DNA from: a virus
Taxonomy: Duplodnaviria > Caudoviricetes
Virus record (IMG/VR): IMGVR_UViG_3300037991_002725
Span: 1-35,954 of that record
Reading direction: 5' to 3' (one strand)
Length of the DNA: 35,954 nucleotides
In this document: positions 9,536-35,748 of the stretch, in pieces
Numbering within the stretch: position 1 is the stretch's first letter
Layout: the number at the start of each line of letters is the position of its first letter
Notes under the pieces: generated by a model
Databases searched by the model: none
The model's input: only the letters and a program-made list of their open reading frames with translations
What the model was told of the DNA's origin: nothing
Made by a program: the position numbers and the translations under genes

Positions 9536-12127
9536 TTACTCTTTTTTATCCGAAGGGAAGGGTAATTGAGCATAAGAATCTTCATTCAGATTCCATTTAT
9601 TTGGGTTCTCTTCATCGTCTAACATTTCTTGTTTCTTTCCTGTCCATGCTATCCAACTCTTTTGTTCATCTAATGGAACTACTCTAAAGTGCATTCTCGT
9701 TTGAAACTTATCTCCATCTAATCTATATTCATGGTATCCATCTTTTTGAATACCTAATTCTATACTGCCTTTATCCAAGACTTTCTTAGATTCACCTGCA
9801 TTCTTCATTACAATAGCCGGATACTTACCTGACTTACCAAACAATTCGTATATGTCTTCTGACTCTTCAATATCAATAGTCCAACCCATACGCTCGTCTT
9901 TGTATTCTATGATTAAATCTACATTATCATCTTCTCTAAGATTAATTGTATACTTACCTGTTTCTTCCTTTTGTAACTCTTCAACATCTTTTTCCAGTAT
10001 ATCTTCTCTTGCAGTAAACTTGTTAGGATGAAGATAAACTAAATCTTCTTGTTGTTTCATCCAAGACATTAACCTTCCTTCATCAGAGTCGAATAGGTCT
10101 TGAAAAGTTCCTTGATGTTTGTCCTTAACATAATCTAATATCTGTTCAAACCTTAGATTATCTCTACCACTCTCTAATATTTCATTACGAATAGCCAATC
10201 TAAAGGTAGAACGTTTCCCTTTCATTATACTAACTACTTGCTCTTTCCACAGGTCTATGTTGTATAGAGCATTCTTTTGCATAAGAGAATCTCCTTCAAA
10301 ACCATAGATTGTGAAACCATCCATATCCTCTTTTAGAATAATCTCAGCAGTTCCATGTATGTGGTCTGTAATGTAATATCCTTTCTTCACATCTTTCTTT
10401 TTCTGACCTCTTGGGTTCTGTAATCCTGATGTAACTTCAAACATCCCACCTACCTTATCTCCGAATGTATATCCAATTGCATTAAGAGATTTCTTTGTCT
10501 TACTTGCTAGTTGCTCTAATGTTTCAACCGTATCTGATTGAGTTACTTCGGGTATCTCTATAACTTTAGCAGAAAATAGTTTGAACCCATCTTTACCTTT
10601 CTTAACTTCATCAACCTTTACTCTAACAATACTACCAATCTTTACTGATTGTTTTGTGTTGAGAGCCTTACCCACTTCTAAGTAGTCTTTATCTTCAAAC
10701 TCAACAGTCTTGTAGTTCCTCGCAGTTTCAGCATTAACTGGCCCAACTCCCATTGTGTAGGAATGTAGATTGCTCTTTGTCTTCTTATCATCCAACACTA
10801 TAACATCCAAGTCCACGAACTTTTTCCACTTAATCCACTTAGGATTTTTCTTAACCCCAATATAGTAAGTTGATTCTATATCTTTGATTACCACACCTTC
10901 TGATGCAGGTAACTGCATTATTTCTTTAGCATAGGATTCTACTTCTTTTATGGAATCAGCGATTCTTGTATCCTTCTTAGATGGGAATGCTAAGTCCTCA
11001 GACGAATGTTGAGCATACTGATACAAAAGAATATTATTTCTTTCTCGTAGAGTTTCATCAGCAATGTTCTTTCCTTCATGAACCATAATATCAAAGACGT
11101 GTGCTTTTAGTTCACCACCTTTTTTATTCTTGAAAACATGGGCTATTGTATCTGCTCTATGTAATGGCTCATCACCATCAAACAACATGAGTTCCCCATC
11201 TAATATACAATCATTGAACATTTTCTTTTCCAAGTGTTTTACTTGTTTTGGACACTTATCTGTAATGTCCTTTTCATTGAAAGAGTATATTCTGACTTTA
11301 CCATTGAACTTGTGAAGTTGTATTCTCATACCATCATATTTTTCTTGAACAATGTATTCACCAGTAAGACCTTTGATTTCTTTCATATCATCTATCTCAA
11401 AGATTCTATACATTGGTTTGTTGGGAACGATAAAGTCAATTTCTTGTTTTTGTTCACTCTTTGCAATATCTAACTCAACGAGATTATCCCACTTATCCTC
11501 ATCATACTGAGAAGCATACACCTTCTCCAATAATTTGTAAGCCCCCTTGAACTTACTTTCTACTCTTCTTGTATCTTCCTCTTCTCCACCATAATGTTCT
11601 ATGATGTATAATGGAATGTCCTTTGGTTCTAAATCCAAACCCATTACATTCTGAGTTATTTTATCGGGTTTGAGTTCTACCGCTTTCCATGCCTTTTCAG
11701 GTAAAGCATTTGCATGAGAGCGTAGTGCATAATGAATAAAATAAGCAAACAGTGCTTCATTCTTCAACAACTTAGGTATTACATCATCACCAAGTTGTTT
11801 TGAAAACGGGTCACTGACTTTTTCGGATTTGAACCTGAGTTCTTTTACCGCTTCATACAATTCCTTTGCTTGTCTTGATTTTGGGTTGTATGCCTCATCA
11901 GATTGAGCCACGTCTTCTTTGACATAAGTTTTCAATTCATTGCTAAAATCATCAAGAGAATCTAATTGTTCTCTGATATCCTTTACTGTTTTCTTCCAAG
12001 CATCCCCATAATCATCGGGATTTTCTCTTGCTGAAAGATAGGAGTAACGAACCTTCTCAAAGAAATCTAAGACCTGTTTTGTTAGGCCACTTGTTTCTTT
12101 TTCAAACTCTAATCCTGTTTGCGGCAT
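9536..12127 (-). CDS. lig: ATP-dependent DNA ligase with long N- and C-terminal extensions
   Basis: Motif I EKYDGMR, III LDGELM, IIIa VFDIM, IV EGVVIK, V WIKWK, then an OB-like domain. Start MPQTG behind GAGGGG. Confidence 0.92.
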   Translation of the reverse strand: MPQTGLEFEKETSGLTKQVLDFFEKVRYSYLSARENPDDYGDAWKKTVKDIREQLDSLDDFSNELKTYVKEDVAQSDEAYNPKSRQAKELYEAVKELRFKSEKVSDPFSKQLGDDVIPKLLKNEALFAYFIHYALRSHANALPEKAWKAVELKPDKITQNVMGLDLEPKDIPLYIIEHYGGEEEDTRRVESKFKGAYKLLEKVYASQYDEDKWDNLVELDIAKSEQKQEIDFIVPNKPMYRIFEIDDMKEIKGLTGEYIVQEKYDGMRIQLHKFNGKVRIYSFNEKDITDKCPKQVKHLEKKMFNDCILDGELMLFDGDEPLHRADTIAHVFKNKKGGELKAHVFDIMVHEGKNIADETLRERNNILLYQYAQHSSEDLAFPSKKDTRIADSIKEVESYAKEIMQLPASEGVVIKDIESTYYIGVKKNPKWIKWKKFVDLDVIVLDDKKTKSNLHSYTMGVGPVNAETARNYKTVEFEDKDYLEVGKALNTKQSVKIGSIVRVKVDEVKKGKDGFKLFSAKVIEIPEVTQSDTVETLEQLASKTKKSLNAIGYTFGDKVGGMFEVTSGLQNPRGQKKKDVKKGYYITDHIHGTAEIILKEDMDGFTIYGFEGDSLMQKNALYNIDLWKEQVVSIMKGKRSTFRLAIRNEILESGRDNLRFEQILDYVKDKHQGTFQDLFDSDEGRLMSWMKQQEDLVYLHPNKFTAREDILEKDVEELQKEETGKYTINLREDDNVDLIIEYKDERMGWTIDIEESEDIYELFGKSGKYPAIVMKNAGESKKVLDKGSIELGIQKDGYHEYRLDGDKFQTRMHFRVVPLDEQKSWIAWTGKKQEMLDDEENPNKWNLNEDSYAQLPFPSDKKE

Positions 12128-12154
12128 CTGACCCCTCACGTCTTTCGTAGGGAT

Positions 12155-14827: not shown

Positions 14828-14836
14828 GTAATCAAC

Positions 14837-15351: not shown

Positions 15352-15352
15352 A

Positions 15353-17518: not shown

Positions 17519-17775
17519 AATCCCTCAACCCTCCTGTATTTTTTCTTAGCGGATTTACCTCTTGGAACGTGTTGCTTTCCTTGCTTTGTTCCTTTTCTTT
17601 TCTTACGATTCTCATATGCTTTTTCAGAAGGTGTCAAAGAATCCCGAACTGCTTTTGGAGCATATCTCCCTTTCTTTTTTGATTTGGGTGAGATGTATCC
17701 CCAATCTTCTCTTGTCCATTCAGAGAGTGCTTTTTGCCTTTTTGATTTGGCTTTTAATATTTCAAACCAAGTCAT
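17515..17775 (-). CDS. Small basic protein (DUF5872-like C-half) with W tag
   Basis: MTWFEILK, then LSEWTREDW..RYAPK..NRKKRKG..GKQHV. Family name from recall. Confidence 0.75.
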   Translation of the reverse strand: MTWFEILKAKSKRQKALSEWTREDWGYISPKSKKKGRYAPKAVRDSLTPSEKAYENRKKRKGTKQGKQHVPRGKSAKKKYRRVEGL

Positions 17776-19100
17776 GCAATCACCCCTTCAATAACATCCA
17801 TTGCACCCATCTTACAATTGTCATGTAACTTGGCAACAGTATCAATGTCAATATCATATCGTGTGAAATCATAACCTACATGGTCTTTGTGATTCTCATA
17901 TTTCATCAACTTGAAGAGTTCTTCTCTCCTTTCATTATACCAATCAGCCTTCTTATGTGATTTCTTCATCCTGATTAACTCTAACAGAATATCAGCATTC
18001 TTACCTTTCATTCTGAAATGTGGCCTACATTTTGTAAGTAGTTCAACAACATCATCACCTGAGTAAAAGTTCAACCTGTTTACTGGTCTTGTATCCTGTG
18101 GGGATTTTTGGTCGAGATGTAATCTACCGCACCCTAATGACTTGTGCATCTCCATCATGAAAGCCTTACCTCTTTCTCCTGTTGCAACTAAACCGACTCT
18201 TGGATTGTAATTCTTATCCATTGTAATGTAGCCATCTGAGTCAATAAATGCAGCAGTATAAGCATAGATATCTTTCTTTATCTCATCACTAAACTTGTAG
18301 AAAGCACCGTTAACGGTGGTGATGTTTTCTTGTTTAGCCATTTTTGCAATTACGTTTGGAGTTGTTTTTGTAAAGAGATTCTTTGGTAGCCTTTCATGTA
18401 TCTGCCTTGCAGATATTCCGGGTTCTTCACATATAGATTTTAGAATGTGATGTTTAATTTTATCCTTTGGAGAAGTAGTTTTCATATGCTTCTTCAACAA
18501 TCTTTTGAATTGTCTCTTTGTGTTAGTCATCTCCTTTGTCAATCTTGAGTAATCAGAATTGAAAGGCATATCCTCCTTCTCTATTTTTGCTTCCCAATAT
18601 TTACAGAGAGTATCAATTAGTTCTCGCCTTGTAGTTGCATCGTCAACATATGATAGTTTGATTAGATTATCTTCCGAGCAAGTCATGTCTTTGAGAACTG
18701 GTTTGTATTTACTAATCCAGTAAATGTTATCCATGCTTCTATCCAAGTGGTCAGAATATGCCTTGATTAAATTCTCAATTGAATTGGTAATCTTTACCTT
18801 GTCCTCTCCTTTGAGAGTCCTTCTATATTTTTTTAGTTCCTTTATGGTCTTTGGGATATCAGAACCTTCAATTTCATACTTAGTCAAAGTATACTTCAAT
18901 TCCTTTCTTGCATCAGATAAACTCATTCTGAAATCTTCTGCGTATTTCTTTTCCAAAATACTGTGGTCTTCTATTGGAACATTCGATAGCCAAGAACGTT
19001 TCAAGTCTTTAGTGCGTTCCTCGATTTCTTCTTCTAAAGTCTCCTTTCGCTTTGTTTGCTCAAGAACTTCTTCTAAGATTTCACTATCTTTCTCCGCCAC
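17772..19100 (-). CDS. LAGLIDADG endonuclease-domain protein with N-terminal helical and HTH regions
   Basis: YAYTAAFIDSDGYI motif, then a typical single-motif LAGLIDADG body (LGCGRL, PHFRMKGKNA); wHTH-like ILKSICEEPGISARQIHERL; GTG start. Confidence 0.85.
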   Translation of the reverse strand: MAEKDSEILEEVLEQTKRKETLEEEIEERTKDLKRSWLSNVPIEDHSILEKKYAEDFRMSLSDARKELKYTLTKYEIEGSDIPKTIKELKKYRRTLKGEDKVKITNSIENLIKAYSDHLDRSMDNIYWISKYKPVLKDMTCSEDNLIKLSYVDDATTRRELIDTLCKYWEAKIEKEDMPFNSDYSRLTKEMTNTKRQFKRLLKKHMKTTSPKDKIKHHILKSICEEPGISARQIHERLPKNLFTKTTPNVIAKMAKQENITTVNGAFYKFSDEIKKDIYAYTAAFIDSDGYITMDKNYNPRVGLVATGERGKAFMMEMHKSLGCGRLHLDQKSPQDTRPVNRLNFYSGDDVVELLTKCRPHFRMKGKNADILLELIRMKKSHKKADWYNERREELFKLMKYENHKDHVGYDFTRYDIDIDTVAKLHDNCKMGAMDVIEGVIA

Positions 19101-25568: not shown

Positions 25569-25665
25569 TCTATTCACCTACTATCACTTAATATGTAACT
25601 CAATATACCATTTGGTATCTTATTTCTAGGATGAGTTACTATGTATCGAATGTTCATTGTAATCT

Positions 25666-26099: not shown

Positions 26100-26647
26100 T
26101 GTAAATCATCCTCATCATAGCCATATATTTCTTTCATTCTTCTTCGGTATTCTTGATTTTCCTTTTGATTAGCGGAGTTATCAATTTTCCTGTTAACGAA
26201 ACCTACTCCTAACTTCCTTTGAGTTGGCCTACCTTTCCTGTTAACGAAACGCCTACCACCTGTTTCACCTGTATACTGAACTGGTTTCACAACAGGTTGA
26301 GGATTTTTTGCTCGATAAGTTTCCATTAATTCATTTATAGATTGTTTGAAAGCACGATAGAGTTCTTCTTCTCCATCTCCTTGTCGTCCCATTGATGCAG
26401 TATAAACTAAATGTGGCCCTTCTGCCATATACAATTCACCGTTACGAAACTTGAACTGATACACTGAACGTCTATTTTCACCAGTGCTTTTTGACCTTAG
26501 AGTTAACTCAAAATCATCTCCCATTTTTTTGTTTATTCTTATTATCATGGTTCTATCGCCAAACTTTTCTATGCCTTCTCTTCTAGCAATATCCTTTAGC
26601 CTTGATTGCATAGGCGTTAACTGTTTTATTATATCGAACCAACTCAT
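26096..26647 (-). CDS. Hypothetical protein with W tag
   Basis: MSWFDIIK; SD GGAGG; ATGA overlap. Confidence 0.85.
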   Translation of the reverse strand: MSWFDIIKQLTPMQSRLKDIARREGIEKFGDRTMIIRINKKMGDDFELTLRSKSTGENRRSVYQFKFRNGELYMAEGPHLVYTASMGRQGDGEEELYRAFKQSINELMETYRAKNPQPVVKPVQYTGETGGRRFVNRKGRPTQRKLGVGFVNRKIDNSANQKENQEYRRRMKEIYGYDEDDLQ

Positions 26648-27303
26648 TGTAACTTATCCTCCATTTGCTTTCTAACATCCAACCAAACTTCGGGATGATT
26701 CTGTGCTAACACTTCTTTGATAATCTGCATCTGATGAACGATGATTGTGTCTTGTCTTCTGTGAACGAGTTTACCCTTGAACTCCATTAGATACTTTAGC
26801 GACTCTCTCACTTCCTTCGCTAACTTTGTCAGTGAATCAATTGATTTGTGGTCTAAGTCTTCTATCTCAAACAATGCCTCTAACTTTCTCTCAAGGTTAG
26901 TGATGTTACCACTTAGAGTATCAATCTCATTGACTTCCTTTGTCGCCAATATTTGTGCTGCCGCTTTTTGCACCAATGGTTGTGTATGTTTCTTGATGTG
27001 TCTAACTACTTGTTCCTTTGAACAACCCACTATCTTAGCGGCAAGTTCAGGAGTCATATCTCCCGAATACAATTCCTGTTCAATTTCTGAACGATTCTCA
27101 TAAACACACAATGCACACTTGGGGTTAGAGGCATCAGCATAACCGCCCATGTGATTTCTCTGATGTTTGGCAGATGTTCCACTAGGCCAGTTCATCCTAC
27201 TGTCCAAGTCATCGGGGTGAATGTGCATACTCTCCAAATCCCTCTCAAAGATTTCCCTGTCTTCGTGCATACAAAGACGACATCTCTTTCTTGTTACAGT
27301 CAA
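26644..27303 (-). CDS. Zinc-finger/HTH repeat protein, candidate terminase small subunit
   Basis: Two tandem CxxC..HxxxH units (CRLC..HQRNH; CALC..HIKKH), then coiled coil; upstream of terL; probable TTG start behind GAGGGG. Function inferred. Confidence 0.55.
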   Translation of the reverse strand: MTVTRKRCRLCMHEDREIFERDLESMHIHPDDLDSRMNWPSGTSAKHQRNHMGGYADASNPKCALCVYENRSEIEQELYSGDMTPELAAKIVGCSKEQVVRHIKKHTQPLVQKAAAQILATKEVNEIDTLSGNITNLERKLEALFEIEDLDHKSIDSLTKLAKEVRESLKYLMEFKGKLVHRRQDTIIVHQMQIIKEVLAQNHPEVWLDVRKQMEDKLQ

Positions 27304-27414
27304 TATAACGCCCCCTCGTATGTTCCACATCTAACACAAAAATCACCGGAAGAAGTTGATGACTCAAAGGGAGTTATCGCCAAACAAAAACAACAGACTC
27401 CCAAAAACAAACTC

Positions 27415-27510
27415 TCACTTCTCCATGTAACTACCACAATAGGGACACATTGTATTAGAACAATTATCAAATGGAATTTTCACCTTATAACACATTATAC
27501 AACTCAACAC
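27415..27510 (-). CDS. 31-aa CPxCG zinc-finger microprotein
   Basis: GTG start behind GAGGTGA: MLSCIMCYKVKIPFDNCSNTMCPYCGSYMEK; not in the ORF track. Confidence 0.65.
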   Translation of the reverse strand: MLSCIMCYKVKIPFDNCSNTMCPYCGSYMEK

Positions 27511-27513
27511 TAA

Positions 27514-28626
27514 TCACCTCGCTAACATATCTCTCCAATCAAGAGATTTCTTTTCTGTATCAGGGTCAGGTCTTTCTCCGAAAACCAATGGGCTTCTCGC
27601 AACATCTCCACTTGCTTGTTTGAAGTGCATCTTCATGCCCTTCCTCTTAGCAAGTTCAAACGCCATCAACTTAACTTGTCTTCTTGATAACTTGAACCAA
27701 CATTCTTCGATATCATTTGGAACGTTTATTCTCTTAAGGCTCTCAACCGCATCTGACTCTTTCTCATTCTTTATGTCTTGAGCCTGTCCTACAATTAATC
27801 TTCTAACTTTACTATCAGGAAATGACTTACCCTCTGTTCCGTTATTCAACTCTGTTTCCACTATGGCTCTCAATACAGAAATTGTGAGGGCAGTAGTTGC
27901 AGCCTTCTTACCCTCAATAGGAACAGGGTTATCTTTGTTGATAATTATTGGGGCATCTTCAATATCTTTGATAGCCTGTTTAACTATCATATGTAGGCTT
28001 GGAGAATTGAAAGGAGCATTAGTTCCTCTACCATAAAGTGCTTGCCAAAATGGTGGTGTGGCAGCATTCTTGGAATCATTATACCATTCAGATGAAACTG
28101 CGGGAACATCCTCTTCTTTCAAATCTCTAACAGTTTCATACTCATCAGTTCTATAATGTCCATAAACAGGTTCAGTATCTAATACTCTTCCAGTGTCTTC
28201 TGACCAATCTACTGGATTAGAGAATACAACGTTACGAGGGTCAGCAGAACTTCCCTCAATTCCATCCATTAGTTTGTCTAATGCTTTCAAAGCAGGTAAC
28301 TGTGCTTTCGACATATCAGGTTTAGAGAAGATAGTCTTCAACGCCTTGAAGATAGCAACTCCACCTTTGCCCTTTATCTTACTTCCAGTCTTTCCCTTGA
28401 TTCTTCCAGTTACTCCTTGATTCTTCACTACATCGAGTAAACTCATGTTACTGGCTTCAGGACTAATCATCCCGATTGAATCACCTGCAAGTCCATCGGC
28501 TTTTCTTTCCCACTCTTGGAAAGCCTGTCCGAAAGACCTCTTACTTACGTTGATTGTAGCGTCTGTCCCGTCTGGTAATTTCGTCTTGATACCTTTGTCT
28601 TTTGAGACTCTTTTTCCTTTTACCAC
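27514..28626 (-). CDS. Hypothetical protein ending in W-tag-like motif
   Basis: 370 aa, GTG start behind GGAGGGG; ends KKSLDWRDMLAR. Confidence 0.85.
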   Translation of the reverse strand: MVKGKRVSKDKGIKTKLPDGTDATINVSKRSFGQAFQEWERKADGLAGDSIGMISPEASNMSLLDVVKNQGVTGRIKGKTGSKIKGKGGVAIFKALKTIFSKPDMSKAQLPALKALDKLMDGIEGSSADPRNVVFSNPVDWSEDTGRVLDTEPVYGHYRTDEYETVRDLKEEDVPAVSSEWYNDSKNAATPPFWQALYGRGTNAPFNSPSLHMIVKQAIKDIEDAPIIINKDNPVPIEGKKAATTALTISVLRAIVETELNNGTEGKSFPDSKVRRLIVGQAQDIKNEKESDAVESLKRINVPNDIEECWFKLSRRQVKLMAFELAKRKGMKMHFKQASGDVARSPLVFGERPDPDTEKKSLDWRDMLAR

Positions 28627-29149
28627 GTCTTTTTCCCCCTCCCGTTTTATTGTTGAATAATGCTGATGTCCCGCTTGAGGTTGACGTTACTGCTCCTCCC
28701 ATTCTTAGTATGTTAAACCAAGAATCATCATCGGTGCTTAGTGAACCCTGCATAGTCGCACTATGATGAAGACTATCAAACTTGCTTAAGTTGTTAGGAA
28801 CAAAATAAGAGTTGGTCATTCTATCTCCTGTTCTCATCATTACATAGTTAGCATAGTCTTTCACGCCCTTCTTACTTCTCATAATTGAATTAACTCCTCT
28901 TTTGTAATATGCCATTTCCTTTTCATTTTCTTTCATTGGATTAAGTTTAGCCCACTCAATAAAATAACCGTCATCTCCAAAGATTTCTTCTTTTATGAAC
29001 GGAATAATATAACTGGTTAATTGATTGGGTAACTCAATGAACTGTCTTTTTAGCCAACCTAAGAAATCATCTTGTATAGCCATCAAAACATATTGAGGCA
29101 TAGTTGCCATATTTGTCAACATATTACGCAAAACTTCTCGCCAACTCAT
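28541..29149 (-). CDS. Hypothetical protein with N-terminal and internal W tag
   Basis: Start re-set to MSWREVLR (ATGA overlap); internal SWFNILR; basic tail overlaps the next gene by 86 nt. Confidence 0.75.
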   Translation of the reverse strand: MSWREVLRNMLTNMATMPQYVLMAIQDDFLGWLKRQFIELPNQLTSYIIPFIKEEIFGDDGYFIEWAKLNPMKENEKEMAYYKRGVNSIMRSKKGVKDYANYVMMRTGDRMTNSYFVPNNLSKFDSLHHSATMQGSLSTDDDSWFNILRMGGAVTSTSSGTSALFNNKTGGGKRRGKRKKSLKRQRYQDEITRRDRRYNQRK

Positions 29150-29421
29150 TTCTTCTTCCTCTTCTTTGGCGTAAGTATGTTCCTTGCAGTTTGGCAACAG
29201 AACCTTATCTTCTGAGTTGACTCCAACTTCCAAAAAGAATCTCTTTCCAATCCGAACTTATCTTCAATGTGACAACACAACTCATACCTACTCATACTTG
29301 CAAAATCATCATCAATCTCTAAACCGAGAACTGGCCCATCAGGATGAACAAGTTGTTTATCCAACCAAACATACGTGTTACCCATTAACGAAATTAATTT
29401 TCTAATTAACCACTGTTTCAT
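29146..29421 (-). CDS. Hypothetical protein (91 aa)
   Basis: SD AGGTGA; ATGA overlaps at both ends. Confidence 0.8.
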   Translation of the reverse strand: MKQWLIRKLISLMGNTYVWLDKQLVHPDGPVLGLEIDDDFASMSRYELCCHIEDKFGLERDSFWKLESTQKIRFCCQTARNILTPKKRKKK

Positions 29422-29783
29422 ACTAAATCACCTGTAACAATACGATGAGTGTTTTCATCTGAACCAAGCCATGAAAGTAAACTGATAACTCTTTCATTAT
29501 GGCTTTCAATATCCCTCCTTGTTTCTGACACTAAGTTTCGTGGATGCAGAGTCGGGTCAGTAGAATTAACAATTGGATGGTCAGGATATGGTTCAACGGG
29601 ATTCAACAAAGGAAACTCTTCATTATTGATACTGTTGATTTTTCTAATTTCTTTATTGATACGCTTATGTCCAGTAAACGTAATGCTTCTATTACGCTTT
29701 ATCCAATCAATAGTCGCTTCTTTAGTTTCTTGATTTTCAATAGGTTGAGGCGACCTAAACTTGAGAATTTCAAACCAACTCAT
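29418..29783 (-). CDS. Hypothetical protein with W tag
   Basis: MSWFEILK; ATGA overlap. Confidence 0.8.
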   Translation of the reverse strand: MSWFEILKFRSPQPIENQETKEATIDWIKRNRSITFTGHKRINKEIRKINSINNEEFPLLNPVEPYPDHPIVNSTDPTLHPRNLVSETRRDIESHNERVISLLSWLGSDENTHRIVTGDLV

Positions 29784-30508
29784 TTCTTACCACCTAAACG
29801 CTTTTGCCTATCTTGTAGTTGTTCATTGTCTTGCCAAGTTTCAGGCCATATGTTTCTAAAATTAACATTACCTTGTTTTTTGTATTCTTTGAATCCATGA
29901 ACTGAATTTAATATTATGACTTTTCTAGCAGTCGAAAAAGCACTCAAATCTTCTTTAGGATAAACTTCAATCATAAACTGAGCAACACTTCTATTCAACA
30001 AGTTAGAACCTGTCATCGGTCTTTTTATTCCTTGAATTGTATAATTCAGAGTAGCGTCAACATTTCCTTCACCTGCTTGGTTTTTCTTACCTGCTGAAAC
30101 GAAGGAAGTGTAATTACCAAGACCTTGAACATTATTGTCTATTCCTAAAATAACATCTTTCAACGGGTAATCCCTATGATTGCCAACTCTACTAAACTTC
30201 TGTTGTGCGTCAAAATGTGGTCGGACAATAACAACTGTTCCATTGTTAGTTTGAAACATAGCACCGCTATCTGAAGATGTGCCTTCTTTATCATCTTGAA
30301 ATATTCTGTTTGAGAATCTAATGAAATTAGGCATACCTGCAACAGAACCATCTGAACTTCTTAGTTTTAGAATGTCAAGCCAACTATCGGACTCATCCCT
30401 CTTGTGAAGTACGTCAAACCATAGGTCAAAAGATTCTACCCCGTCTTTTTTCAAAAAATGGGCTGGAATTTTTTTGGGACTAGCAAAATTTTTTTCCATC
30501 TTTTTCAC
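29780..30508 (-). CDS. Hypothetical protein with two tandem W-tag copies near the N-terminus
   Basis: LWFDVLHK and SWLDILK at about residues 30-50; exact start uncertain (GTG 30508 or ATG 30499). Confidence 0.8.
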   Translation of the reverse strand: MKKMEKNFASPKKIPAHFLKKDGVESFDLWFDVLHKRDESDSWLDILKLRSSDGSVAGMPNFIRFSNRIFQDDKEGTSSDSGAMFQTNNGTVVIVRPHFDAQQKFSRVGNHRDYPLKDVILGIDNNVQGLGNYTSFVSAGKKNQAGEGNVDATLNYTIQGIKRPMTGSNLLNRSVAQFMIEVYPKEDLSAFSTARKVIILNSVHGFKEYKKQGNVNFRNIWPETWQDNEQLQDRQKRLGGKK

Positions 30509-30826: not shown

Positions 30827-30851
30827 CAAAGCATATGGTTGGATAACTTTG
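30827..30851. repeat. Palindromic element, degenerate copy
   Basis: CAAAG-CATATGGT-tggataa-CTTTG (left spacer missing). Confidence 0.65.
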
Positions 30852-30895
30852 TATAAACGACCACAAAGCCCCGTTAGGGACAATGGGTTTTATGT

Positions 30896-31642
30896 TCACT
30901 CTTCCTCTTCTGAGGCATTGCGAGCAAGTTTGGTCGCTTCTTCCCTTTGTGCGATAATATCGGGTGAACACTCTGATTCAGAGTGAGTCTTCACATCAAA
31001 GGTGCAATCAGTAGTATGGGGCTTGAAGATACGAAGTGCATCTTCGACTTTACTCTTGATTATACCAAAGTCATTCAAAGTGATATCAACCATAACTGGC
31101 TTTACTCTATCCGCTTTGAGAACTCTGTCTAAGGTTAATGTGGTGGTTAGAGTTAACTCTACACCATCAGCAGTATTTCGTAGTTTAGGGGTTAGAGTAA
31201 CTGTTCCCTCATAACCGTCATCATCAAGAGCATAAGAGAGTTCAGCCCTATTGTATGGTAGTTCTCCTTCAAAGGTATCAAGACCCAAGTAGAACTTTGA
31301 CCCTTTAGGTTGTTGCCAAACCAACTTGCTCTTTGTGTTGGTATGACGAATGTAGGAGGCATCGAAGTTGTTTTCCTTTAACTGCTCGACATACTCTTTA
31401 GCGTCTGAAAGATACTTTGCCATGAATGCAGTCTCTCCATCTAAGGTGATTTCGTATTCATATGATGTTTTCTCTTCTTCGACTTGACCATATGTTATAG
31501 ATGGTGGGTCGGATGAATAATGCCAACTGGTCAAAATCAATCCACTGTCCATAAGTCTCTCTGCGACTTTGCAAAATGCTTGGTCGCCCATCTTCTTGTC
31601 GGTATACTGGTATATTGCCTTCTGTTCGTATGTTACGCTCAT
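30896..31642 (-). CDS. Hypothetical protein (248 aa), leaderless
   Basis: Long ORF; CTTAATACC box about 20-28 nt upstream of the ATG, no SD. Confidence 0.85.
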   Translation of the reverse strand: MSVTYEQKAIYQYTDKKMGDQAFCKVAERLMDSGLILTSWHYSSDPPSITYGQVEEEKTSYEYEITLDGETAFMAKYLSDAKEYVEQLKENNFDASYIRHTNTKSKLVWQQPKGSKFYLGLDTFEGELPYNRAELSYALDDDGYEGTVTLTPKLRNTADGVELTLTTTLTLDRVLKADRVKPVMVDITLNDFGIIKSKVEDALRIFKPHTTDCTFDVKTHSESECSPDIIAQREEATKLARNASEEEE

Positions 31643-31683
31643 AGTATTACTAAGAAGTAGTAGGTATTAAGGTAGTCTCTTTA

Positions 31684-31706
31684 CAAAGTATATCCTACCA
31701 TATGGT
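31684..31706. repeat. Palindromic element (left arm plus core)
   Basis: CAAAG-tatatcct-ACCATATGGT. Confidence 0.85.
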
Positions 31707-31785
31707 AATAGAAATAAACTGACATTTGCAAATGGTGAAATGTAACGTGTCAAAATTGACAGTAAAAATGGCTCACAAAACCAGC

Positions 31786-31823
31786 CGAAGCAATTTTTTA
31801 CAACCATATGGTTTAGTGCTTTG
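31786..31823. repeat. Palindromic element
   Basis: CGAAG-N12-ACCATATGGT-N6-CTTTG. Confidence 0.85.
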
Positions 31824-31867
31824 CGGAAAGAACCCTAATTATACCTGAAAAGGGAGGTATATACTAC

Positions 31868-32131
31868 ATGATGAGAACAATGTATGCCATAAAGAGCAGA
31901 AACTACGCAACTGACACAGTTAGAATCACAGAATACCACCAACATGAGAGAAGTGCAATTCGGGAAGTGAAAAGATTGAATGCAATACAGATAGACAGAT
32001 TGACTGCTGAAATTGCAACCCTCAATGGTGCTATTCGTGGTAAGGGCGTTGAAAGGATGCACCAAATCCGTGAAATGCTCAAAAACCCCCAGTATTTCAT
32101 TGAACCGATTAGGGTTCAAGACGGATACTGA
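31868..32131 (+). CDS. Hypothetical coiled-coil protein (87 aa)
   Basis: TTATACC box about 23 nt upstream, SD GGAGG, followed by a cUUCGg hairpin. Confidence 0.8.
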   Translation: MMRTMYAIKSRNYATDTVRITEYHQHERSAIREVKRLNAIQIDRLTAEIATLNGAIRGKGVERMHQIREMLKNPQYFIEPIRVQDGY

Positions 32132-32133
32132 TT

Positions 32134-32155
32134 GGACTGCCTTCGGGCATCCTTT
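32134..32155 (+). terminator. cUUCGg hairpin plus short U-tract
   Basis: GGA-c-TGCC-TTCG-GGCA-TCC-TTT, starting 3 nt after the stop. Confidence 0.75.
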
Positions 32156-32170
32156 CAGGGTTTAACGTCA

Positions 32171-32208
32171 CAAAGTTCGTGCCAACCATATGGTTGTAAA
32201 TTGCTTTG
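32171..32208. repeat. Palindromic element
   Basis: CAAAG-N9-ACCATATGGT-N9-CTTTG, between convergent genes. Confidence 0.9.
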
Positions 32209-32218
32209 CGAACATTAG

Positions 32219-32230
32219 ACCCCGAAGGGT
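32219..32230 (-). terminator. cUUCGg hairpin
   Basis: Minus strand ACCC-TTCG-GGGT downstream of 32284..32793, preceded by a second GC-rich stem at about 32231-32271. Confidence 0.65.
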
Positions 32231-32283
32231 GTAGGAGGGGACTGAGGTGAAATTAGGGTGTCCCCCCCTACTTTTGAGTCCGT

Positions 32284-32793
32284 CTAATCCTCCTTTTGAG
32301 GTATAAGGTTGATTAGAGGCTTACCATCAGCGAACTGATAGTCTTTTGATGTTCCACGCATTGCAGAGTGAACCCTTGAGTCCGTTGAACTCAATTGATA
32401 GTCTGCATACTCTTCGGCAGTGGCGAAAACTCCGCCTCCGCCTCTTTTGCTCTTCACTTCATACATTTGAAGGAAGTTTGACGCATTCCATGCACTAATC
32501 AAGGCACTTCGGGCATCATTTCGGCTTTCGTTGTATGTTGCAAGCATACCCGCATCAATCGAAGAGGCTTTGCCTGTTCTGAATGGTGATGTTGGTATAT
32601 CCATAAAGAGAGTGCGAACAGTAGACATGATTCTTGCCCTTCGGCCTTCATCAGTCTTACCCTTCTTCATGATTCGGTCAAGAGAATCTAAATCCTCTTG
32701 ATATGACTCATGTTCGGGGTCATTCCATCCCTTGTTTGCTCTTTTCCATGCGGTTATCTTCTGAGTGAACTCAGTCCATTTATTTTCGGTCAT
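32284..32793 (-). CDS. Hypothetical protein, paralogue of 34603..35073
   Basis: Start re-set to MTENKW behind AGGAG; the longer ORF would run through the palindrome. Confidence 0.85.
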   Translation of the reverse strand: MTENKWTEFTQKITAWKRANKGWNDPEHESYQEDLDSLDRIMKKGKTDEGRRARIMSTVRTLFMDIPTSPFRTGKASSIDAGMLATYNESRNDARSALISAWNASNFLQMYEVKSKRGGGGVFATAEEYADYQLSSTDSRVHSAMRGTSKDYQFADGKPLINLIPQKED

Positions 32794-32861
32794 ATTTGTT
32801 TCTCCTGTCGTTTTAGACGGTATATTACCCGTATTTAGGGTATTAGGGTATTCAAGATTCA

Positions 32862-32900
32862 CAAAGTAGTTCATACCATATGGTTGGAAGAGGCACTTTG
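32862..32900. repeat. Palindromic element
   Basis: CAAAG-N8-ACCATATGGT-N11-CTTTG. Confidence 0.9.
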
Positions 32901-32912
32901 TCGAATCAGGCA

Positions 32913-32926
32913 CACCCCGAAGGGTG
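32913..32926 (-). terminator. cUUCGg hairpin
   Basis: Minus strand CACCC-TTCG-GGGTG, 7 nt after the stop at 32934. Confidence 0.7.
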
Positions 32927-32933
32927 GCTTACG

Positions 32934-33254
32934 TTAATCCTGTGAAAGTATCTCATCACAATCAAGACCATCAAGATAATCGTTAATATCAGTTGATTGC
33001 CATATGTCCTTCCCACAATCTGAGCAATAAAAGTTAACTTCAATTTCGGGTTCTTCAATCTCATAATACTGTTTACCGTATTGACGTAATAAAGGGCGTT
33101 TCATAACTTCGGAGTCCTCCGCTATCAGAATCCTTGTGCCTTGAACGTATGAATTACGATGTTCGCAGTATGCTTGTATTTCTTCCGTTGCTAAATCCGA
33201 ATAATAATCTGCTAACATCTCGTCATCCTTGTCTTTCTGTGCATCATAATCCAT
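32934..33254 (-). CDS. Acidic hypothetical protein, possible zinc ribbon
   Basis: Start MDYDAQ behind GGAGG; CEH..CSDCG. Confidence 0.8.
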   Translation of the reverse strand: MDYDAQKDKDDEMLADYYSDLATEEIQAYCEHRNSYVQGTRILIAEDSEVMKRPLLRQYGKQYYEIEEPEIEVNFYCSDCGKDIWQSTDINDYLDGLDCDEILSQD

Positions 33255-33510
33255 TGTATTCCTCCCATTCACCATCAATCTCAATCATTGTCTGAGTAGG
33301 CCATTTAGTATCTTCATTCAAATCATTGGAGACATCTTCTTCTACGACAGTGCCATCTTGCAACTCCATGTGTAGTGTGCAATACTTCACCCAAAATCTA
33401 ACTACCTTGCCTGTCTTGAATAATTCTACATTTTCCAATTCATCTATTTTGAATGACATCCAGCAATTGTATGTTAGTTCTATCTCTGTTATGTCCTTTG
33501 TCTCAACCAT
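33244..33510 (-). CDS. Acidic hypothetical protein (88 aa)
   Basis: SD GGAGG; tightly packed operon. Confidence 0.8.
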   Translation of the reverse strand: MVETKDITEIELTYNCWMSFKIDELENVELFKTGKVVRFWVKYCTLHMELQDGTVVEEDVSNDLNEDTKWPTQTMIEIDGEWEEYNGL

Positions 33511-33639
33511 TTAATCAGCCTCCAATTCAGAAAGGTATTCATCAACCACACTAGAAACGTCATTAGGCATATCTGATACATACACCGTTTCTCCATTCTC
33601 TAACGTTACTTCAATTCTCCAACTTGTTATTATACTCAT
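33511..33639 (-). CDS. 42-aa microprotein
   Basis: MSIITSWRIEVTLENGETVYVSDMPNDVSSVVDEYLSELEAD; SD GGAGG; ATGA overlap; not in the track. Confidence 0.75.
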   Translation of the reverse strand: MSIITSWRIEVTLENGETVYVSDMPNDVSSVVDEYLSELEAD

Positions 33640-33767
33640 AATCCGTATTCCTCCAGTATCTCATTAACTCTACACATACATTCATCCCATTCACCAAAGA
33701 ACTCTTCATCTTCCGGCTTGATTGTTATGCTTCCGCATTTCTTGCAACGTATGCAATCTATGAACAT
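33636..33767 (-). CDS. 43-aa Cys-rich microprotein
   Basis: MFIDCIRCKKCGSITIKPEDEEFFGEWDECMCRVNEILEEYGL; SD GGAGTGA; not in the track. Confidence 0.7.
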   Translation of the reverse strand: MFIDCIRCKKCGSITIKPEDEEFFGEWDECMCRVNEILEEYGL

Positions 33768-33898
33768 GGCATACTCACTCCACAATTATCATTAATGCAA
33801 ATATACCAAACAATTCCGCCATCTCCCGGCATCTTGTAGGTAAACCCTCTCTCATATCCTGTTCCGCATTCTCCGCAATATCCAACTATTTCATCCAT
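33758..33898 (-). CDS. 46-aa zinc-ribbon microprotein
   Basis: Start MDEIVG behind GGAGG; CGECG..CINDNC. Confidence 0.75.
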   Translation of the reverse strand: MDEIVGYCGECGTGYERGFTYKMPGDGGIVWYICINDNCGVSMPCS

Positions 33899-33900
33899 TC

Positions 33901-34068
33901 TTATTCCTCCGTATATCCATCGAACCACATTCCACGCTTGCTTAAATCCGAACAAGTTGAACCACTCGTTTCGGGGTCTTTGCAGTGTTCTTGTGCTTCT
34001 TCAAGAGTTAATCCTCTCTTGATTGTTCTATTATTTCCATCAAATCTAAATCTAATTATCTTATACAT
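33901..34068 (-). CDS. 55-aa hypothetical protein
   Basis: Start MYKIIRF behind GGAG; GLTLEEAQEHCKDPETS..WFDGY. Confidence 0.8.
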   Translation of the reverse strand: MYKIIRFRFDGNNRTIKRGLTLEEAQEHCKDPETSGSTCSDLSKRGMWFDGYTEE

Positions 34069-34172
34069 TAGTATCTCTCCGTTGTTATGTGTAGGCATCT
34101 TTTACAGGCATACCCTTTCCTTGTCCATTTGTGTTCCATTACGTGTAAACACCCTCTGCAAACTTTCATCAT
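34068..34172 (-). CDS. 34-aa zinc-finger microprotein
   Basis: MMKVCRGCLHVMEHKWTRKGYACKRCLHITTERY; SD GGAGG; overlaps both neighbours; not in the track. Confidence 0.7.
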   Translation of the reverse strand: MMKVCRGCLHVMEHKWTRKGYACKRCLHITTERY

Positions 34173-34471
34173 ATTCCTCCGCTCCTTTTGTTTCTTGATG
34201 TTGTAATGGTTGTAATGAACTTCAACCTATCGTATTTAGGATTCGTTCCCTCCAACATTTCAGCCAACTCTCTACACTGTTCATGTGTTAATTCTAAGTC
34301 TAACGCCATCTCAACAAGCCAATTGTAATGTCTTCTCGTAAAAAGATTAGATTTACCACTGACTTTAGGGTAAGCATTACCCTTTAGAGTTGCACCACAT
34401 GAACATCTTATCATTATCAAGTTCTCTGTGTCGTCTTCCGTATGGTCTGTCCCGCATATCTTGCATTTCAT
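34169..34471 (-). CDS. Zinc-finger hypothetical protein (100 aa), leaderless first gene of operon
   Basis: CKICG..CSCG; CTTATACC box about 20-28 nt upstream. Confidence 0.8.
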   Translation of the reverse strand: MKCKICGTDHTEDDTENLIMIRCSCGATLKGNAYPKVSGKSNLFTRRHYNWLVEMALDLELTHEQCRELAEMLEGTNPKYDRLKFITTITTSRNKRSGGI

Positions 34472-34514
34472 ACTATTTGACTACTAATGAAGGTATAAGT
34501 GGGGTTCTTACCGA

Positions 34515-34548
34515 CAAAGTGCAAAACCATATGGTAAGAGATACTTTG
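34515..34548. repeat. Palindromic element
   Basis: CAAAG-N6-ACCATATGGT-N8-CTTTG. Confidence 0.9.
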
Positions 34549-34581
34549 TAATCTCAAACCCCAAAGAACGGGTGCTTAGAA

Positions 34582-34600
34582 GGGTAACTGAGAGTTACCC
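34582..34600 (-). terminator. Hairpin immediately after stop
   Basis: GGGTAAC-tgaga-GTTACCC, 2 nt after the stop at 34603. Confidence 0.6.
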
Positions 34601-34602
34601 GC

Positions 34603-35073
34603 TTATTCCGAAGTTACCTCCGAAATTGTAGCGGTTAGACTCTCCATCGAACCATCCCAAGTTCCGTCTTTGGATAGTTTGACTGCTACGCCGTTCACGT
34701 TCTTTAGAACTGAAGAAGCCCAAGCAGACCCGTTAGGGAAGTGCTTGACTTTGCTCCTTTGGTTAGGTAGAAGTAATGCTCTAATAGCATCTCCACCATT
34801 ATCAAAGAGAGTAGCCATCTCATTCACAATTGCAGTTACATCGTTAACGATGGTTTGTGCTTCTGCGGGTAGAGTGTATCCTCTCTGTCCATATGGAGCA
34901 GTTGCGTAATCCCTTGCAATCTCACGGATTGTAGTGGAGATACGAACCTGTCGTGTAGGGTTTGCGTTACCCTTCTCAATCATTCTGCTGATAGTTGAAG
35001 CATCTGCTTCATCAACAGTCTTATCGCTCTTTAGCCATGCCAATGTTGTTCCTGAAAACTCTTTCCATTCCAT
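34603..35073 (-). CDS. Hypothetical protein, paralogue of 32284..32793
   Basis: Start re-set to MEWKEF behind AGGTGA. Confidence 0.85.
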   Translation of the reverse strand: MEWKEFSGTTLAWLKSDKTVDEADASTISRMIEKGNANPTRQVRISTTIREIARDYATAPYGQRGYTLPAEAQTIVNDVTAIVNEMATLFDNGGDAIRALLLPNQRSKVKHFPNGSAWASSVLKNVNGVAVKLSKDGTWDGSMESLTATISEVTSE

Positions 35074-35161
35074 CTTTATCACCTTTTCAAAATAATCGGA
35101 TTTTCTCAAACCCTTCTAAGCACTCTATGGGTCAGATGTTAGCCATATGGGGTCTTTCTGA

Positions 35162-35195
35162 CAAAGTATCCCAACCATATGGTAGTAACACTTTG
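35162..35195. repeat. Palindromic element between divergent genes
   Basis: ACAAAG-N7-ACCATATGGT-N7-CTTTGT. Confidence 0.9.
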
Positions 35196-35235
35196 TAGGA
35201 GACACCCCATATATCCTGTTTCGTGGGTAAGGGGT

Positions 35236-35418
35236 ATGACGGCACAGATAGTCGAGGGCAAGTTATATCCCTATGAGTTAGAAGTGGCTCACTCCAAGTC
35301 GGGACAAGACCACGTTCTAATCATCAAGAGCCTTAAGGTTCGTAGTGATGACTTACCAAGTGCGTTAGAGCAATTAGATTCAGCGTTGAAAGTATTCAAC
35401 ACTATTCTTAGACAATGA
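35236..35418 (+). CDS. 60-aa hypothetical protein
   Basis: Start MTAQIV; CCCCATATATCC box about 20 nt upstream; the longer ORF would start inside the palindrome. Confidence 0.75.
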   Translation: MTAQIVEGKLYPYELEVAHSKSGQDHVLIIKSLKVRSDDLPSALEQLDSALKVFNTILRQ

Positions 35419-35422
35419 TATT

Positions 35423-35450
35423 CCCATATGGGGCTGACGAACAAACTTTG
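35423..35450. repeat. Palindromic element, variant
   Basis: CCCATATGGG-N13-CTTTG, just after the stop at 35418. Confidence 0.55.
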
Positions 35451-35727
35451 AGTTAATGAGAAGAGTAAAACACAAGTGGAATGCGAGAACGGAAAGTTCT
35501 TCGGGCAAAAGGTTCAGTTATTCATGACACTGACTGGACAGTAAATCTTCGATGACCTTGAAAACTCATATAACTCATAGTCAATGTTCCGATGCCCCAT
35601 ATATTCTCAACGAGGCGAGACTACTGAAGACAAGGTGGTAGTCCTAAACCGTAACCGTGTTCCCTATATTTTGGAATAAAAGTCGGATAAGCCTCGACCC
35701 AATCTAAGGTTCTTTTGGGGATGCCGA

Positions 35728-35748
35728 CAAAGTGGCCTACCATATGGT
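35728..35748. repeat. Palindromic element (left arm plus core)
   Basis: CAAAG-tggcct-ACCATATGGT. Confidence 0.85.

What the first reader, a model, noticed from the sequence alone, without database searches (positions are those of the whole stretch)
30827..35748. Accessory region organised as cassettes delimited by the palindrome CAAAG-N6-12-ACCATATGGT-N6-11-CTTTG
Seen: perfect 10-bp cores at 31697, 31803, 32185, 32875, 34526, 35174 and 35739, and variants at 30832 and 35423. All are intergenic once starts are corrected, and one lies at essentially every boundary between transcription units, whether divergent (35174), tandem (32875, 34526) or convergent (32185). Units point in both directions. 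A site between convergent genes is not explained by a simple promoter role. The variable spacers and outer arms let each site fold as a hairpin or cruciform, reminiscent of integron attC sites. Inference: either binding sites for a viral regulator or insulator, or recombination sites of a cassette-shuffling system for early genes. No recombinase is recognisable in the window.
Basis: partly seen in the sequence, partly recalled or inferred. Interest (0 to 1): 0.82.

Follow-up and report, generated by a model that had tools for sequence, protein, structure and literature searches.

The report
Palindrome-jointed shuffling cassettes in magrovirus
An ocean virus that likely infects archaea keeps its small accessory genes as units joined at one 10-letter DNA palindrome, and related viruses carry these units moved, flipped, gained or lost exactly at that palindrome, likely through a still unidentified cut-and-rejoin enzyme.

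Summary
The feature is real. The window is part of a group-B magrovirus (Poseidoniales virus). Eight cores (seven perfect ACCATATGGT, one variant) cut 30.8-35.7 kb into seven units. The same array lies at the gene-arm divergence point in 46 of 46 relatives recruited by a protein, not by the motif. Relatives differ by whole-unit moves, inversions and indels that break at the core: 41 homology ends there against 3 expected, and the half-site travels with its own cassette in 40 events against 1. Each half instead forms its own weak, covarying hairpin (GGT..C-TTT-G..ACC), leaving an invariant CATATG hinge. No tyrosine, serine or HUH recombinase was found in 5 near-complete genomes. I favour sequence-specific breakage and rejoining at the core (0.6) over PeSL-like by-product recombination at a regulatory site (0.25). 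Against fast switching: 0 of 8 short-array pairs at 90% identity or more are rearranged, and no rearranged joints appear in 8 contig sets. My paper searches found no description. The scan found this system before on other magrovirus genomes. I saw three points in none of those notes: a two-core form in a distant clade, acidic minigene units, and a weak LAGLIDADG-plus-ligase candidate.

The parts
30830..30839 (.). Left boundary core, variant AGCATATGGT; hairpin arm on the inner (right) side only
   Evidence: mismatched cores are enriched at array ends (45 of 137 terminal vs 22 of 343 internal)
30835..31701 (-). Cassette 1 (867 bp): 248-aa gene 30896-31642 (family f24, unknown function) with a TATA-like box just after its hairpin
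   Evidence: RNA contig over 31005-31191 in one run
31697..31706 (.). Core, left arm only
31702..31807 (.). Unit 2 (106 bp): gene-less AT-rich unit without CTTTG arms; begins with the same 18 bases as the 84-bp unit of L030, which lies at another junction
31803..31812 (.). Core, right arm only
31808..32189 (+). Cassette 3 (382 bp): 87-aa gene 31868-32131 (family f58) with a 3' cUUCGg stem-loop at 32141; lies elsewhere and inverted in relatives L022 and L030
32171..32208 (.). Full two-armed site (core 32185-32194) at a convergent junction
32190..32879 (-). Cassette 4 (690 bp): f0 paralogue A, 32284-32793, 169 aa, mostly helical, no fold match; 3' cUUCGg stem-loop at about 32218-32230
32862..32900 (.). 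Full two-armed site (core 32875-32884), tandem junction
32880..34530 (-). Cassette 5 (1651 bp): run of small minus-strand genes from 34471 down to 32934; close relatives swap genes inside it, away from cores
   Evidence: joints at 33233-33648
34515..34548 (.). Full two-armed site (core 34526-34535), tandem junction
34531..35178 (-). Cassette 6 (648 bp): f0 paralogue B, 34603-35073, 156 aa
   Evidence: RNA contigs over 34618-35105
35162..35195 (.). Full two-armed site (core 35174-35183), divergent junction
35179..35743 (+). Cassette 7 (565 bp): 60-aa gene 35236-35418 (family f9) plus a tail without a long ORF, covered by an RNA contig at 35456-35679
35739..35748 (.). Right boundary core, inner (left) arm only; matches the last site of the arrays of L022 and L030, so the whole array is in the window
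17772..19100 (-). Single-motif LAGLIDADG-type protein (442 aa) between terminase and portal; weak enzyme candidate
   Evidence: against:
9536..12139 (-). ATP-dependent DNA ligase in the structural module; could rejoin cut ends (inference)

Best explanation
The region is an array of gene units joined at an invariant palindromic core, at which related viruses have moved, flipped, gained and lost whole units, likely by sequence-specific breakage and rejoining inside CATATG by an enzyme not yet identified. Shown: (1) unit boundaries; (2) breakpoints at the core; (3) both orientations; (4) each gene cassette ends on both sides in a covarying hairpin whose base uses the core's GGT, so a junction can be drawn as hairpin-ATAT-hairpin; (5) array ends and gene-less units mostly lack the hairpin. 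Inferred: each cassette is its own transcription unit (TATA-like box right after the 5' hairpin, cUUCGg stem-loop at the 3' end). Because the core is symmetric, any cut or crossover in it can rejoin in either orientation, which gives inversion, excision and reinsertion. Single units seem to move while their neighbours keep order, which fits excision and reinsertion better than block inversion. The core alone appears sufficient, since arm-less units move too. The CTTTG hairpin likely marks or insulates gene-bearing ends at the DNA level. In short arrays like this one the shuffling is evolutionary, not phase variation.
For: Homology ends pile at +5 to +9 from the core centre: 41 of 292 vs 3.0 expected. 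Core-to-core moves and inversions at base level: L007 5306-6006 = L054 7097-7798 in another position; L024 9396-10022 inverted against L045; an 84-bp core-to-core indel between L022 and L030 at 90-94% identity. In 68 collapsed neighbour-change events the inner half-site travels with its cassette in 40 and the outer half alone in 1. L219 vs L231 (93% flanks): 17 shared blocks, 7 inverted, 24 of 34 ends at cores against a null of 0.07, many units sharing only the 8-10-bp core. CATATG is unchanged in all 67 variant cores; the centre is ATAT in 259 of 260 two-armed matches. Hairpin covariation in non-redundant halves: first pair 0.71 vs 0.34 expected, arm lengths r = 0.43 (450 of 536 halves); 17 of 19 armed variant halves carry the compensating partner. 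Arms on promoter ends 248 of 259, terminator ends 235 of 258, outer boundaries 21 of 127, short units 3 of 76. Array present in 46 of 46 protein-recruited loci and confined to one region in 5 of 5 genomes.
Against: No enzyme identified: 0 of 5 genomes for PF00589, PF00239 and PF01797, none among 53 proteins scanned with Pfam, no fold match for f0 or f2. 0 of 8 short-array pairs at 90% identity or more differ in order or orientation, and a close relative in run X12 is collinear over the array. In 7 of 68 events both halves are kept and the gene behind them is swapped, and in 20 of 68 both halves are too diverged to tell. The core is also the longest perfect identity between joints, so microhomology-driven exchange would cross there too. 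The hairpins are weak: mean -1.24 vs -1.02 to -1.14 kcal/mol for chimeric halves, and the C(TTT)G loop closes in only 74 of 536 minimum-energy folds. The other 14 long-array pairs, at 70-79% flank identity, show only 9 of 76 ends at cores.
Confidence: 0.6

Rival explanations
1. PeSL-like by-product: the palindrome is a binding site for a dimeric regulator or insulator at every transcription-unit boundary. General, microhomology-tolerant recombination (the virus has an AAA_24/RadA-like ATPase, ERCC4 and PD-(D/E)XK nucleases and two ligases) uses it as the longest shared identity, and selection keeps only swaps of intact units.
For: TATA-like box directly after the hairpin on promoter ends (81 of 218 vs 29 of 194 on terminator ends) and cUUCGg on terminator ends (65 of 258 vs 1 of 259). 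A weak 18-bp extended palindrome also in arm-less halves suggests direct protein read-out. Slow shuffling in short arrays. Gene swaps behind retained promoters. Repair enzymes present. Precedent in T4-type phages (PMC2839356).
Against: L219 vs L231 are scrambled at cores shared over only 8-10 bp, among gene-less units with no evident promoter. The central hexamer is invariant while outer core bases vary with compensation. Full sites persist at convergent junctions (14 of 18).
Confidence: 0.25
2. The core is primarily a genome-processing site (origin, concatemer resolution or packaging end) at the point where the two gene arms diverge. Occasional cutting at internal copies followed by religation shuffles the units as a side effect.
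For: Cumulative GC-skew minimum in or within 0.9 kb of the array in 4 of 4 genomes. A distant clade (36% capsid identity) has just two perfect cores, 1.86 kb apart, at the same point (G006, G032), with short repeated motifs nearby.
Against: The skew switch is also explained by transcription direction. Near-complete records run through the array without ending there. In the cultured relative HCTV-1 the divergence upstream of terminase is internal, not a genome end. 25 of 27 distant records, many of them partial, lack the core pair.
Confidence: 0.1
3. One reading: each site folds as one hairpin or cruciform across the palindrome and is read by an integron-type integrase.
For: A cassette array with breakpoints at the site; hairpins with a one-base 3' excess recall extrahelical bases (recalled analogy).
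Against: Left and right halves vary independently. No tyrosine recombinase in 5 of 5 genomes. Cassettes lie in both orientations (164 vs 103) and carry their own promoters. No host array found.
Confidence: 0.04
4. Assembly artefact: chimeric joins at short repeats.
For: All sequences are metagenomic assemblies, and many contigs end near the arrays.
Against: A 10-bp repeat is too short to confuse k-mer assembly (knowledge). Moved units are 77-95% identical, not identical. Independent runs bridge the window's junctions in the same order.
Confidence: 0.01

Closest known systems
PeSL (promoter-early stem-loop) cassettes of T4-type phage hyperplastic regions (PMC2839356; PMC4122927)
   Same: Intergenic promoter plus stem-loop elements in a hypervariable region of small unknown genes; exchange between elements moves self-contained units; no integrase recognised.
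   Different: PeSLs carry sigma-70 promoters and are thought to recombine by homology, giving indels, replacements and minicircles. Here an invariant symmetric core is the crossover point, both cassette ends carry the same hairpin type, inversions are common, gene-less units move too, and the promoters are TATA-like.
Integron cassette arrays (attC/attI, IntI); features recalled
   Same: Tandem cassettes, single-unit moves, hairpin ends with a bulge, array boundaries that differ from internal sites.
   Different: No IntI; two separate hairpins instead of one fold across the site; symmetric core with both orientations; cassettes carry their own promoters.
Halovirus HF2 intergenic repeats (PMC8707807) and HGTV-1 TATA-plus-inverted-repeat motifs (PMC3950731)
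   Same: Archaeal tailed viruses with repeated promoter-bearing intergenic motifs before small genes; shuffling was suggested for HGTV-1.
   Different: In the passages read, those are promoter motifs upstream of genes; no palindromic crossover core, two-ended hairpins or inversion was described.
IS200/IS605 and REP-RAYT HUH systems; features recalled
   Same: Ends defined by short DNA hairpins beside a fixed short sequence.
   Different: No Y1 HUH transposase; symmetric target; confined to one locus.
Magrovirus group B (PMC5434244)
   Same: Ligase and LAGLIDADG gene in the structural module; the close relative G001 has split PolB, a second ligase and (in its clade) ribonucleotide reductase.
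   Different: The array is not mentioned in the main-text passages searched of three magrovirus papers.

Membership tests
Integron | Tyrosine integrase (IntI) encoded with the array | tested here: not met
   PF00589 in 0 of 5 near-complete genomes, controls ring in 14 of 14
Integron | attC folds as one imperfect hairpin across the site | tested here: not met
   No length correlation or complementarity across the core
Integron | Cassettes in one orientation, mostly promoterless | tested here: not met
   164 vs 103 orientations; TATA-like boxes at 5' ends
Integron | Single-stranded recombination via extrahelical bases | not testable with these tools
   A 3' arm most often one base longer than the 5' arm is compatible
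PeSL | Promoter plus stem-loop composite, intergenic, in a hypervariable region | tested here: met
   (promoter activity itself untested)
PeSL | Sigma-70-type promoter | tested here: not met
   6 sites vs 13.6 in shuffles; TATA-like motif instead
PeSL | Exchange by homologous recombination across the shared element | tested here: inconclusive
   Crossovers map to the core in 40 of 68 events, past the hairpin in 7, unclear in 20; the core is also the longest identity
PeSL | Excised minicircles | tested here: inconclusive
   No such joint in 8 low-depth contig sets, which drop rare variants
Serine or tyrosine invertase / shufflon | Dedicated recombinase beside the sites | tested here: not met
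   PF00239 and PF00589 in 0 of 5; only weak partial PHROG hits
Serine or tyrosine invertase / shufflon | Binding arms at fixed distance from the crossover | tested here: not met
   CTTTG lies 3-14 nt from the core; only a weak fixed-register 18-bp signal
IS200/IS605 or REP-RAYT | Y1 HUH transposase | tested here: not met
   PF01797 in 0 of 5, controls ring in 7 of 14
LAGLIDADG target site | Single-motif (homodimeric) LAGLIDADG protein with intact acidic motif | tested here: met
   5 of 5 genomes, domain 69-91% identical, FIDSDG invariant
LAGLIDADG target site | Pseudopalindromic 22-24-bp site cut around four central bases (PMC2602781) | tested here: inconclusive
   Invariant 6-bp centre, 10-bp core, weak signal to 18 bp; cleavage not testable
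LAGLIDADG target site | Enzyme and site co-occur | tested here: not met
   Only 2 of 27 distant LAGLIDADG-bearing records have the core pair, though many are partial. Those two share the strand PRVGLVATG with group B, which is one phylogenetic contrast.
Restriction-type 6-bp cutter site | Avoidance of the site elsewhere in the genome | tested here: not met
   CATATG outside arrays 122 observed vs 118 expected in 4 genomes
Magrovirus group B | Ligase and LAGLIDADG in the structural module; split PolB (B1) | tested here: met
   Window; split PolB in relative G001, 89% capsid identity; criteria from PMC5434244

The most novel reading that the evidence does not exclude
An integrase-free, virus-encoded cassette-shuffling machine of a new class. 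A sequence-specific enzyme opens the CATATG hinge between two DNA hairpins to give self-compatible ends, and these are rejoined in any order or orientation. The boldest candidate pair is the domesticated LAGLIDADG homodimer (4-nt overhang ATAT) plus the structural-module ligase, to which I give about 0.1 on its own. The array would have expanded in group B from an ancestral two-core site.
Probability: 0.35. Interest if true: 0.9.

Novelty: new variant of a known kind. Interest (0 to 1): 0.74.

Why it matters
It shows how an abundant clade of marine archaeal viruses organises and reshuffles its accessory genes: defined, exchangeable units with an exact joint. That makes the old 'linker-mediated modular evolution' idea testable at single-base resolution. 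If a dedicated enzyme acts on a 10-bp symmetric site, it is a recombination chemistry outside the tyrosine, serine and HUH families searched here, and a natural modular-assembly system. The array also delimits the genes these viruses keep as mobile payload (f0 family, acidic minigenes).

Tried and rejected
Single hairpin across the core: rejected. Cassette-specific terminal inverted repeats (lead e1-6090734): not seen; the two ends of one cassette are 0.605 identical vs 0.596 for other halves of the same genome (n = 373), and short units show no extended terminal repeat. f0 as the recombinase: model pLDDT 85.8, mostly helical, no Foldseek match at E <= 0.001, best VIA Z 7.5 on a three-helix stretch, which is a common arrangement; absence of a match does not exclude a role. 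f2 (about 400 aa, 52 of 69 stretches, Cys/His motif): no Pfam, PHROG, PDB-sequence, atlas-family or fold match. PHROG 'transposase' (window 26644-27330, E 5e-5) and 'DNA invertase' (a gene found in 1 of 4 genomes, E 3e-4) hits are weak and cover only part of the profiles. Rfam: nothing above threshold. Host arrays: 30 stretches in genome contigs; 28 are singletons (about 27 expected by my arithmetic) and one contig, in two loci, carries magrovirus array genes and is probably misbinned; no title names Poseidoniales. Reads: no joint at a core in 7 DNA and 1 RNA contig sets. A few loose ends start just behind cores (X7 at 35186 and 35750; X1 and X12 at 30843-30852) but cannot be tied to this virus. 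Contig depth looked somewhat higher over the array than on the short left flank, but the tool warns it is no copy number, so I do not use it. The apparent ACC-AGA-GGT array in G006 is a protein repeat. The G006 gene between its two cores is not an f0 homologue. No complex prediction was run. PF07508, telomere resolvase and Rep-type HUH families were not searched separately. Paper searches without a description of the element; term searches in three magrovirus papers. Supplements were not opened, and subscription papers are not in the library.
Full report
Identity of the window. The 35,954-base record holds a head-tail virus structural module on the minus strand: capsid, protease, portal and terminase. 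An ATP-dependent ligase (9536-12139) and a LAGLIDADG-type gene (17772-19100) are embedded in it. That layout is described for magroviruses of groups A and B, the presumed viruses of Marine Group II archaea (PMC5434244; passages and the first third of the Results read). The close relative G001 (89% capsid identity) has a split PolB and a second ligase, which places the clade in group B. The best annotated capsid matches are haloarchaeal siphoviruses at 23-24% identity. The host is inferred from that paper, not shown here.

Observation. Seven perfect ACCATATGGT cores lie between 31697 and 35748 and none elsewhere; with one mismatch allowed there are 11 matches against 1.00 expected. The two-armed pattern matches 4 of them, with 0 in 100 shuffles. 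With the variant at 30830 the cores delimit seven units of 867, 106, 382, 690, 1651, 648 and 565 bp. The last core matches the terminal site of relatives L022 and L030, so the array is complete in the window. The 35423 variant is probably not a junction.

Distribution. The two-armed pattern hit 115 stretches of IMG/VR; 113 loci from 93 contigs were laid. In the 69 merged stretches over 5 kb, window included, 480 sites fall in one cluster per stretch and 3 outside. In 5 of 5 near-complete genomes every core is in the array. To avoid picking by motif I recruited loci with the conserved f2 protein: 208 found, 80 returned, 46 with at least 7.2 kb upstream. All 46 carry three or more cores there, and 25 of them did not match the earlier set. 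Some arrays have 21-23 sites, mostly short gene-less units. The array sits between the structural arm and the early/replication arm, which both read away from it, at the GC-skew minimum in 4 of 4 genomes. Cellular genomes gave chance-level singletons plus one probably misbinned viral contig.

Anatomy of a site. Over 450 unique sites the left and right spacers are uncorrelated in length and no more complementary than shuffled pairs. Following a lead from earlier scan notes I tested each half on its own. Read outward, a half is ATGGT, mostly 4-9 variable bases, CTTTG, a variable stretch and then ACC. ACC follows within 16 nt in 450 of 536 non-redundant armed halves (chance 0.21). The bases above the GGT/ACC pair covary: 0.71, 0.52 and 0.46 paired against 0.34, 0.25 and 0.30 expected, with TA, AT, CG and GC all used. 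Arm lengths correlate (r = 0.43, best shuffle 0.16), with the 3' arm most often one base longer. The pair next to the loop is 0.56 against 0.36. When the core's outer bases change, the partner changes too in 17 of 19 armed halves. CATATG is unaltered in all 67 one-mismatch cores. So a junction is best drawn as hairpin-ATAT-hairpin. The hairpins are weak and would need single-stranded or strongly supercoiled DNA (inference).

Cassettes as transcription units. Of 411 inner units, 269 could be oriented by gene families seen in at least three stretches. Arms occur on 248 of 259 promoter-side and 235 of 258 terminator-side halves, but on only 21 of 127 outer boundary halves and 3 of 76 short-unit halves. 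A TATA-like motif follows the ACC on promoter sides (81 of 218 vs 29 of 194). A sequence that reads cUUCGg in transcript sense marks terminator sides (65 of 258 vs 1 of 259; that this is a stable RNA tetraloop is recalled). Junctions are tandem 103, divergent 28 and convergent 18, and 14 of the 18 convergent ones are perfect with both arms. At divergent junctions neither hairpin is in the adjacent mRNAs, and at convergent ones there is no promoter, so the common function is at the DNA level (inference). In one RNA run, contigs cover parts of four cassettes and none of those listed spans a core, a weak hint only.

Breakpoints. In all-against-all BLAST, 41 of 292 distinct homology ends inside arrays fall at +5 to +9 from a core centre against 3.0 expected, and none at -19 to -1 against 9.8. 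Pairwise views show exact core-to-core moves (L007/L054, L042/L048), inversions (L024/L045, L066/L070, L026/L059, L054/L077) and an 84-bp core-to-core indel between L022 and L030. The window's own 87-aa cassette lies elsewhere and inverted in L022 and L030. Of 100 pairs with a shared cassette and a different neighbour, 87 passed a stricter filter and collapsed to 68 events. The inner half-site alone is kept in 40, the outer alone in 1, both in 7 (the gene swapped behind a retained hairpin) and neither in 20. L219 and L231, 93% identical in flanks, share 17 blocks, 7 inverted, with 24 of 34 ends at cores. Their long arm-flanked cassettes stay collinear while short arm-less units are scrambled. 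The CTTTG hairpin is therefore not required for movement.

Results against rapid or exclusive core switching. Among short-array pairs, 0 of 8 at 90% identity or more differ in order or orientation, 4 of 7 at 83-90% and 15 of 27 below. Eight contig sets show no rearranged joint at a core; a close relative in X12 is collinear and differs by swaps inside cassette 5. The core is also the longest perfect identity between joints, so crossover position alone cannot separate a dedicated enzyme from microhomology use. What tips me toward a dedicated step is the invariant centre together with heavy scrambling at 8-10 bp of shared sequence.

Enzyme search. Tyrosine, serine and Y1-HUH families ring in 0 of 5 genomes, with working controls. 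Pfam scans of 53 and 29 proteins and a PHROG scan of 30 found none. f0, present in 57 of 69 stretches and twice in the window, and f2 have no fold match. CATATG is not avoided elsewhere (122 vs 118), which argues against a simple 6-bp cutter. The LAGLIDADG protein is conserved in 5 of 5 genomes with its motif intact, and such enzymes leave 4-base 3' overhangs on pseudopalindromes (PMC2602781, passages). That would fit an ATAT hinge and the neighbouring ligase. The co-occurrence test was mostly negative: of 27 distant records with this gene (many partial) only G006 and G032 have cores, as one pair 1.86 kb apart. In G006 the pair forms 16- and 20-bp perfect palindromes around a single gene at the arm divergence. 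Those two share one strand motif with group B, but that is a single contrast. I keep the candidate at about 0.1.

Comparison and novelty. It works most like PeSL-mediated modular shuffling (PMC2839356: abstract and two sections read; PMC4122927: abstract only) and resembles integron arrays (recalled), but it fails defining tests of both. HF2 intergenic repeats and the HGTV-1 motif are archaeal promoter-repeat precedents (PMC8707807 and PMC3950731, passages). Nine library searches and term searches in three magrovirus papers found no description; supplements and subscription papers were not seen. Earlier notes of this scan report the same system on other magrovirus genomes; they are not independent support. 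I had reached the PeSL comparison and the core-breakpoint result before reading them; the half-site hairpin test came from them. Verdict: real, family-wide, undescribed in what I could search; a new variant of cassette shuffling, with about a one-in-three chance of a new recombination chemistry.

Noticed in passing
Short core-to-core units in L001, L004, L014, L026, L032, L040, L051, L056, L059, L066, L070, L076 (e.g. L051 12428-12529): 14 of 33 units under 140 bp carry a GGAGG-type ribosome-binding site and a 6-11-codon acidic minigene (e.g. MFFDDDE, MYDDED, MFDEED) with synonymous variation; function unknown, possibly acidic-tail mimics. Not in this window.
   Followed up: partly
window 31702-31807; L023, L030, L042, L047, L048, L060, L075, L079: A second class of short AT-rich gene-less units, several sharing GAAAAATGT or TTTCAACAT motifs; they move and flip.
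   Followed up: partly
G006 97941 and 99802; G032 55130 and 56985 (L443, L446): A distant magrovirus clade has exactly two cores, in long perfect palindromes, around one 397-aa gene at the arm divergence, with many GGTTTTACC repeats nearby. G008 has GGGTAAACCC repeats at its divergence point and no core.
   Followed up: partly
window 32284-32793 and 34603-35073: f0: a helical family of about 165 aa with 114 members in 57 of 69 stretches, often two in the array plus one just outside; no Pfam, PHROG or fold match.
   Followed up: yes
window 35456-35679: An RNA contig covers this stretch without a long ORF behind the 60-aa gene; possible non-coding RNA; no Rfam match.
   Followed up: no
L116:7738-8946 (family f2): A highly conserved protein of about 400 aa with a CxCGH..H motif, in 52 of 69 stretches and absent from four distant genomes; no known family or fold.
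   Followed up: partly
window 25577-30508: Many genes at the start of the structural arm begin with an MSW/MTW..ILK-type leader, and CCAACTCA/ATGAGTTGG k-mers cluster in the matching region of relatives.
   Followed up: no
L116:9218-9445, 13110-15962: G001 encodes a ThiS/ubiquitin-like protein (weak hit), a ThiF enzyme, a JAB-like protein (weak hit) and a TFIIB homologue close together.
   Followed up: no
window 4718-5389: A small GTPase-like protein (weak Roc/SRPRB hits below cut-off) in the structural module.
   Followed up: no
L153/L154 (NZ_NZTP01000027.1): A contig in an Altibacter MAG carries a six-core array with magrovirus array genes, probably misbinned.
   Followed up: yes
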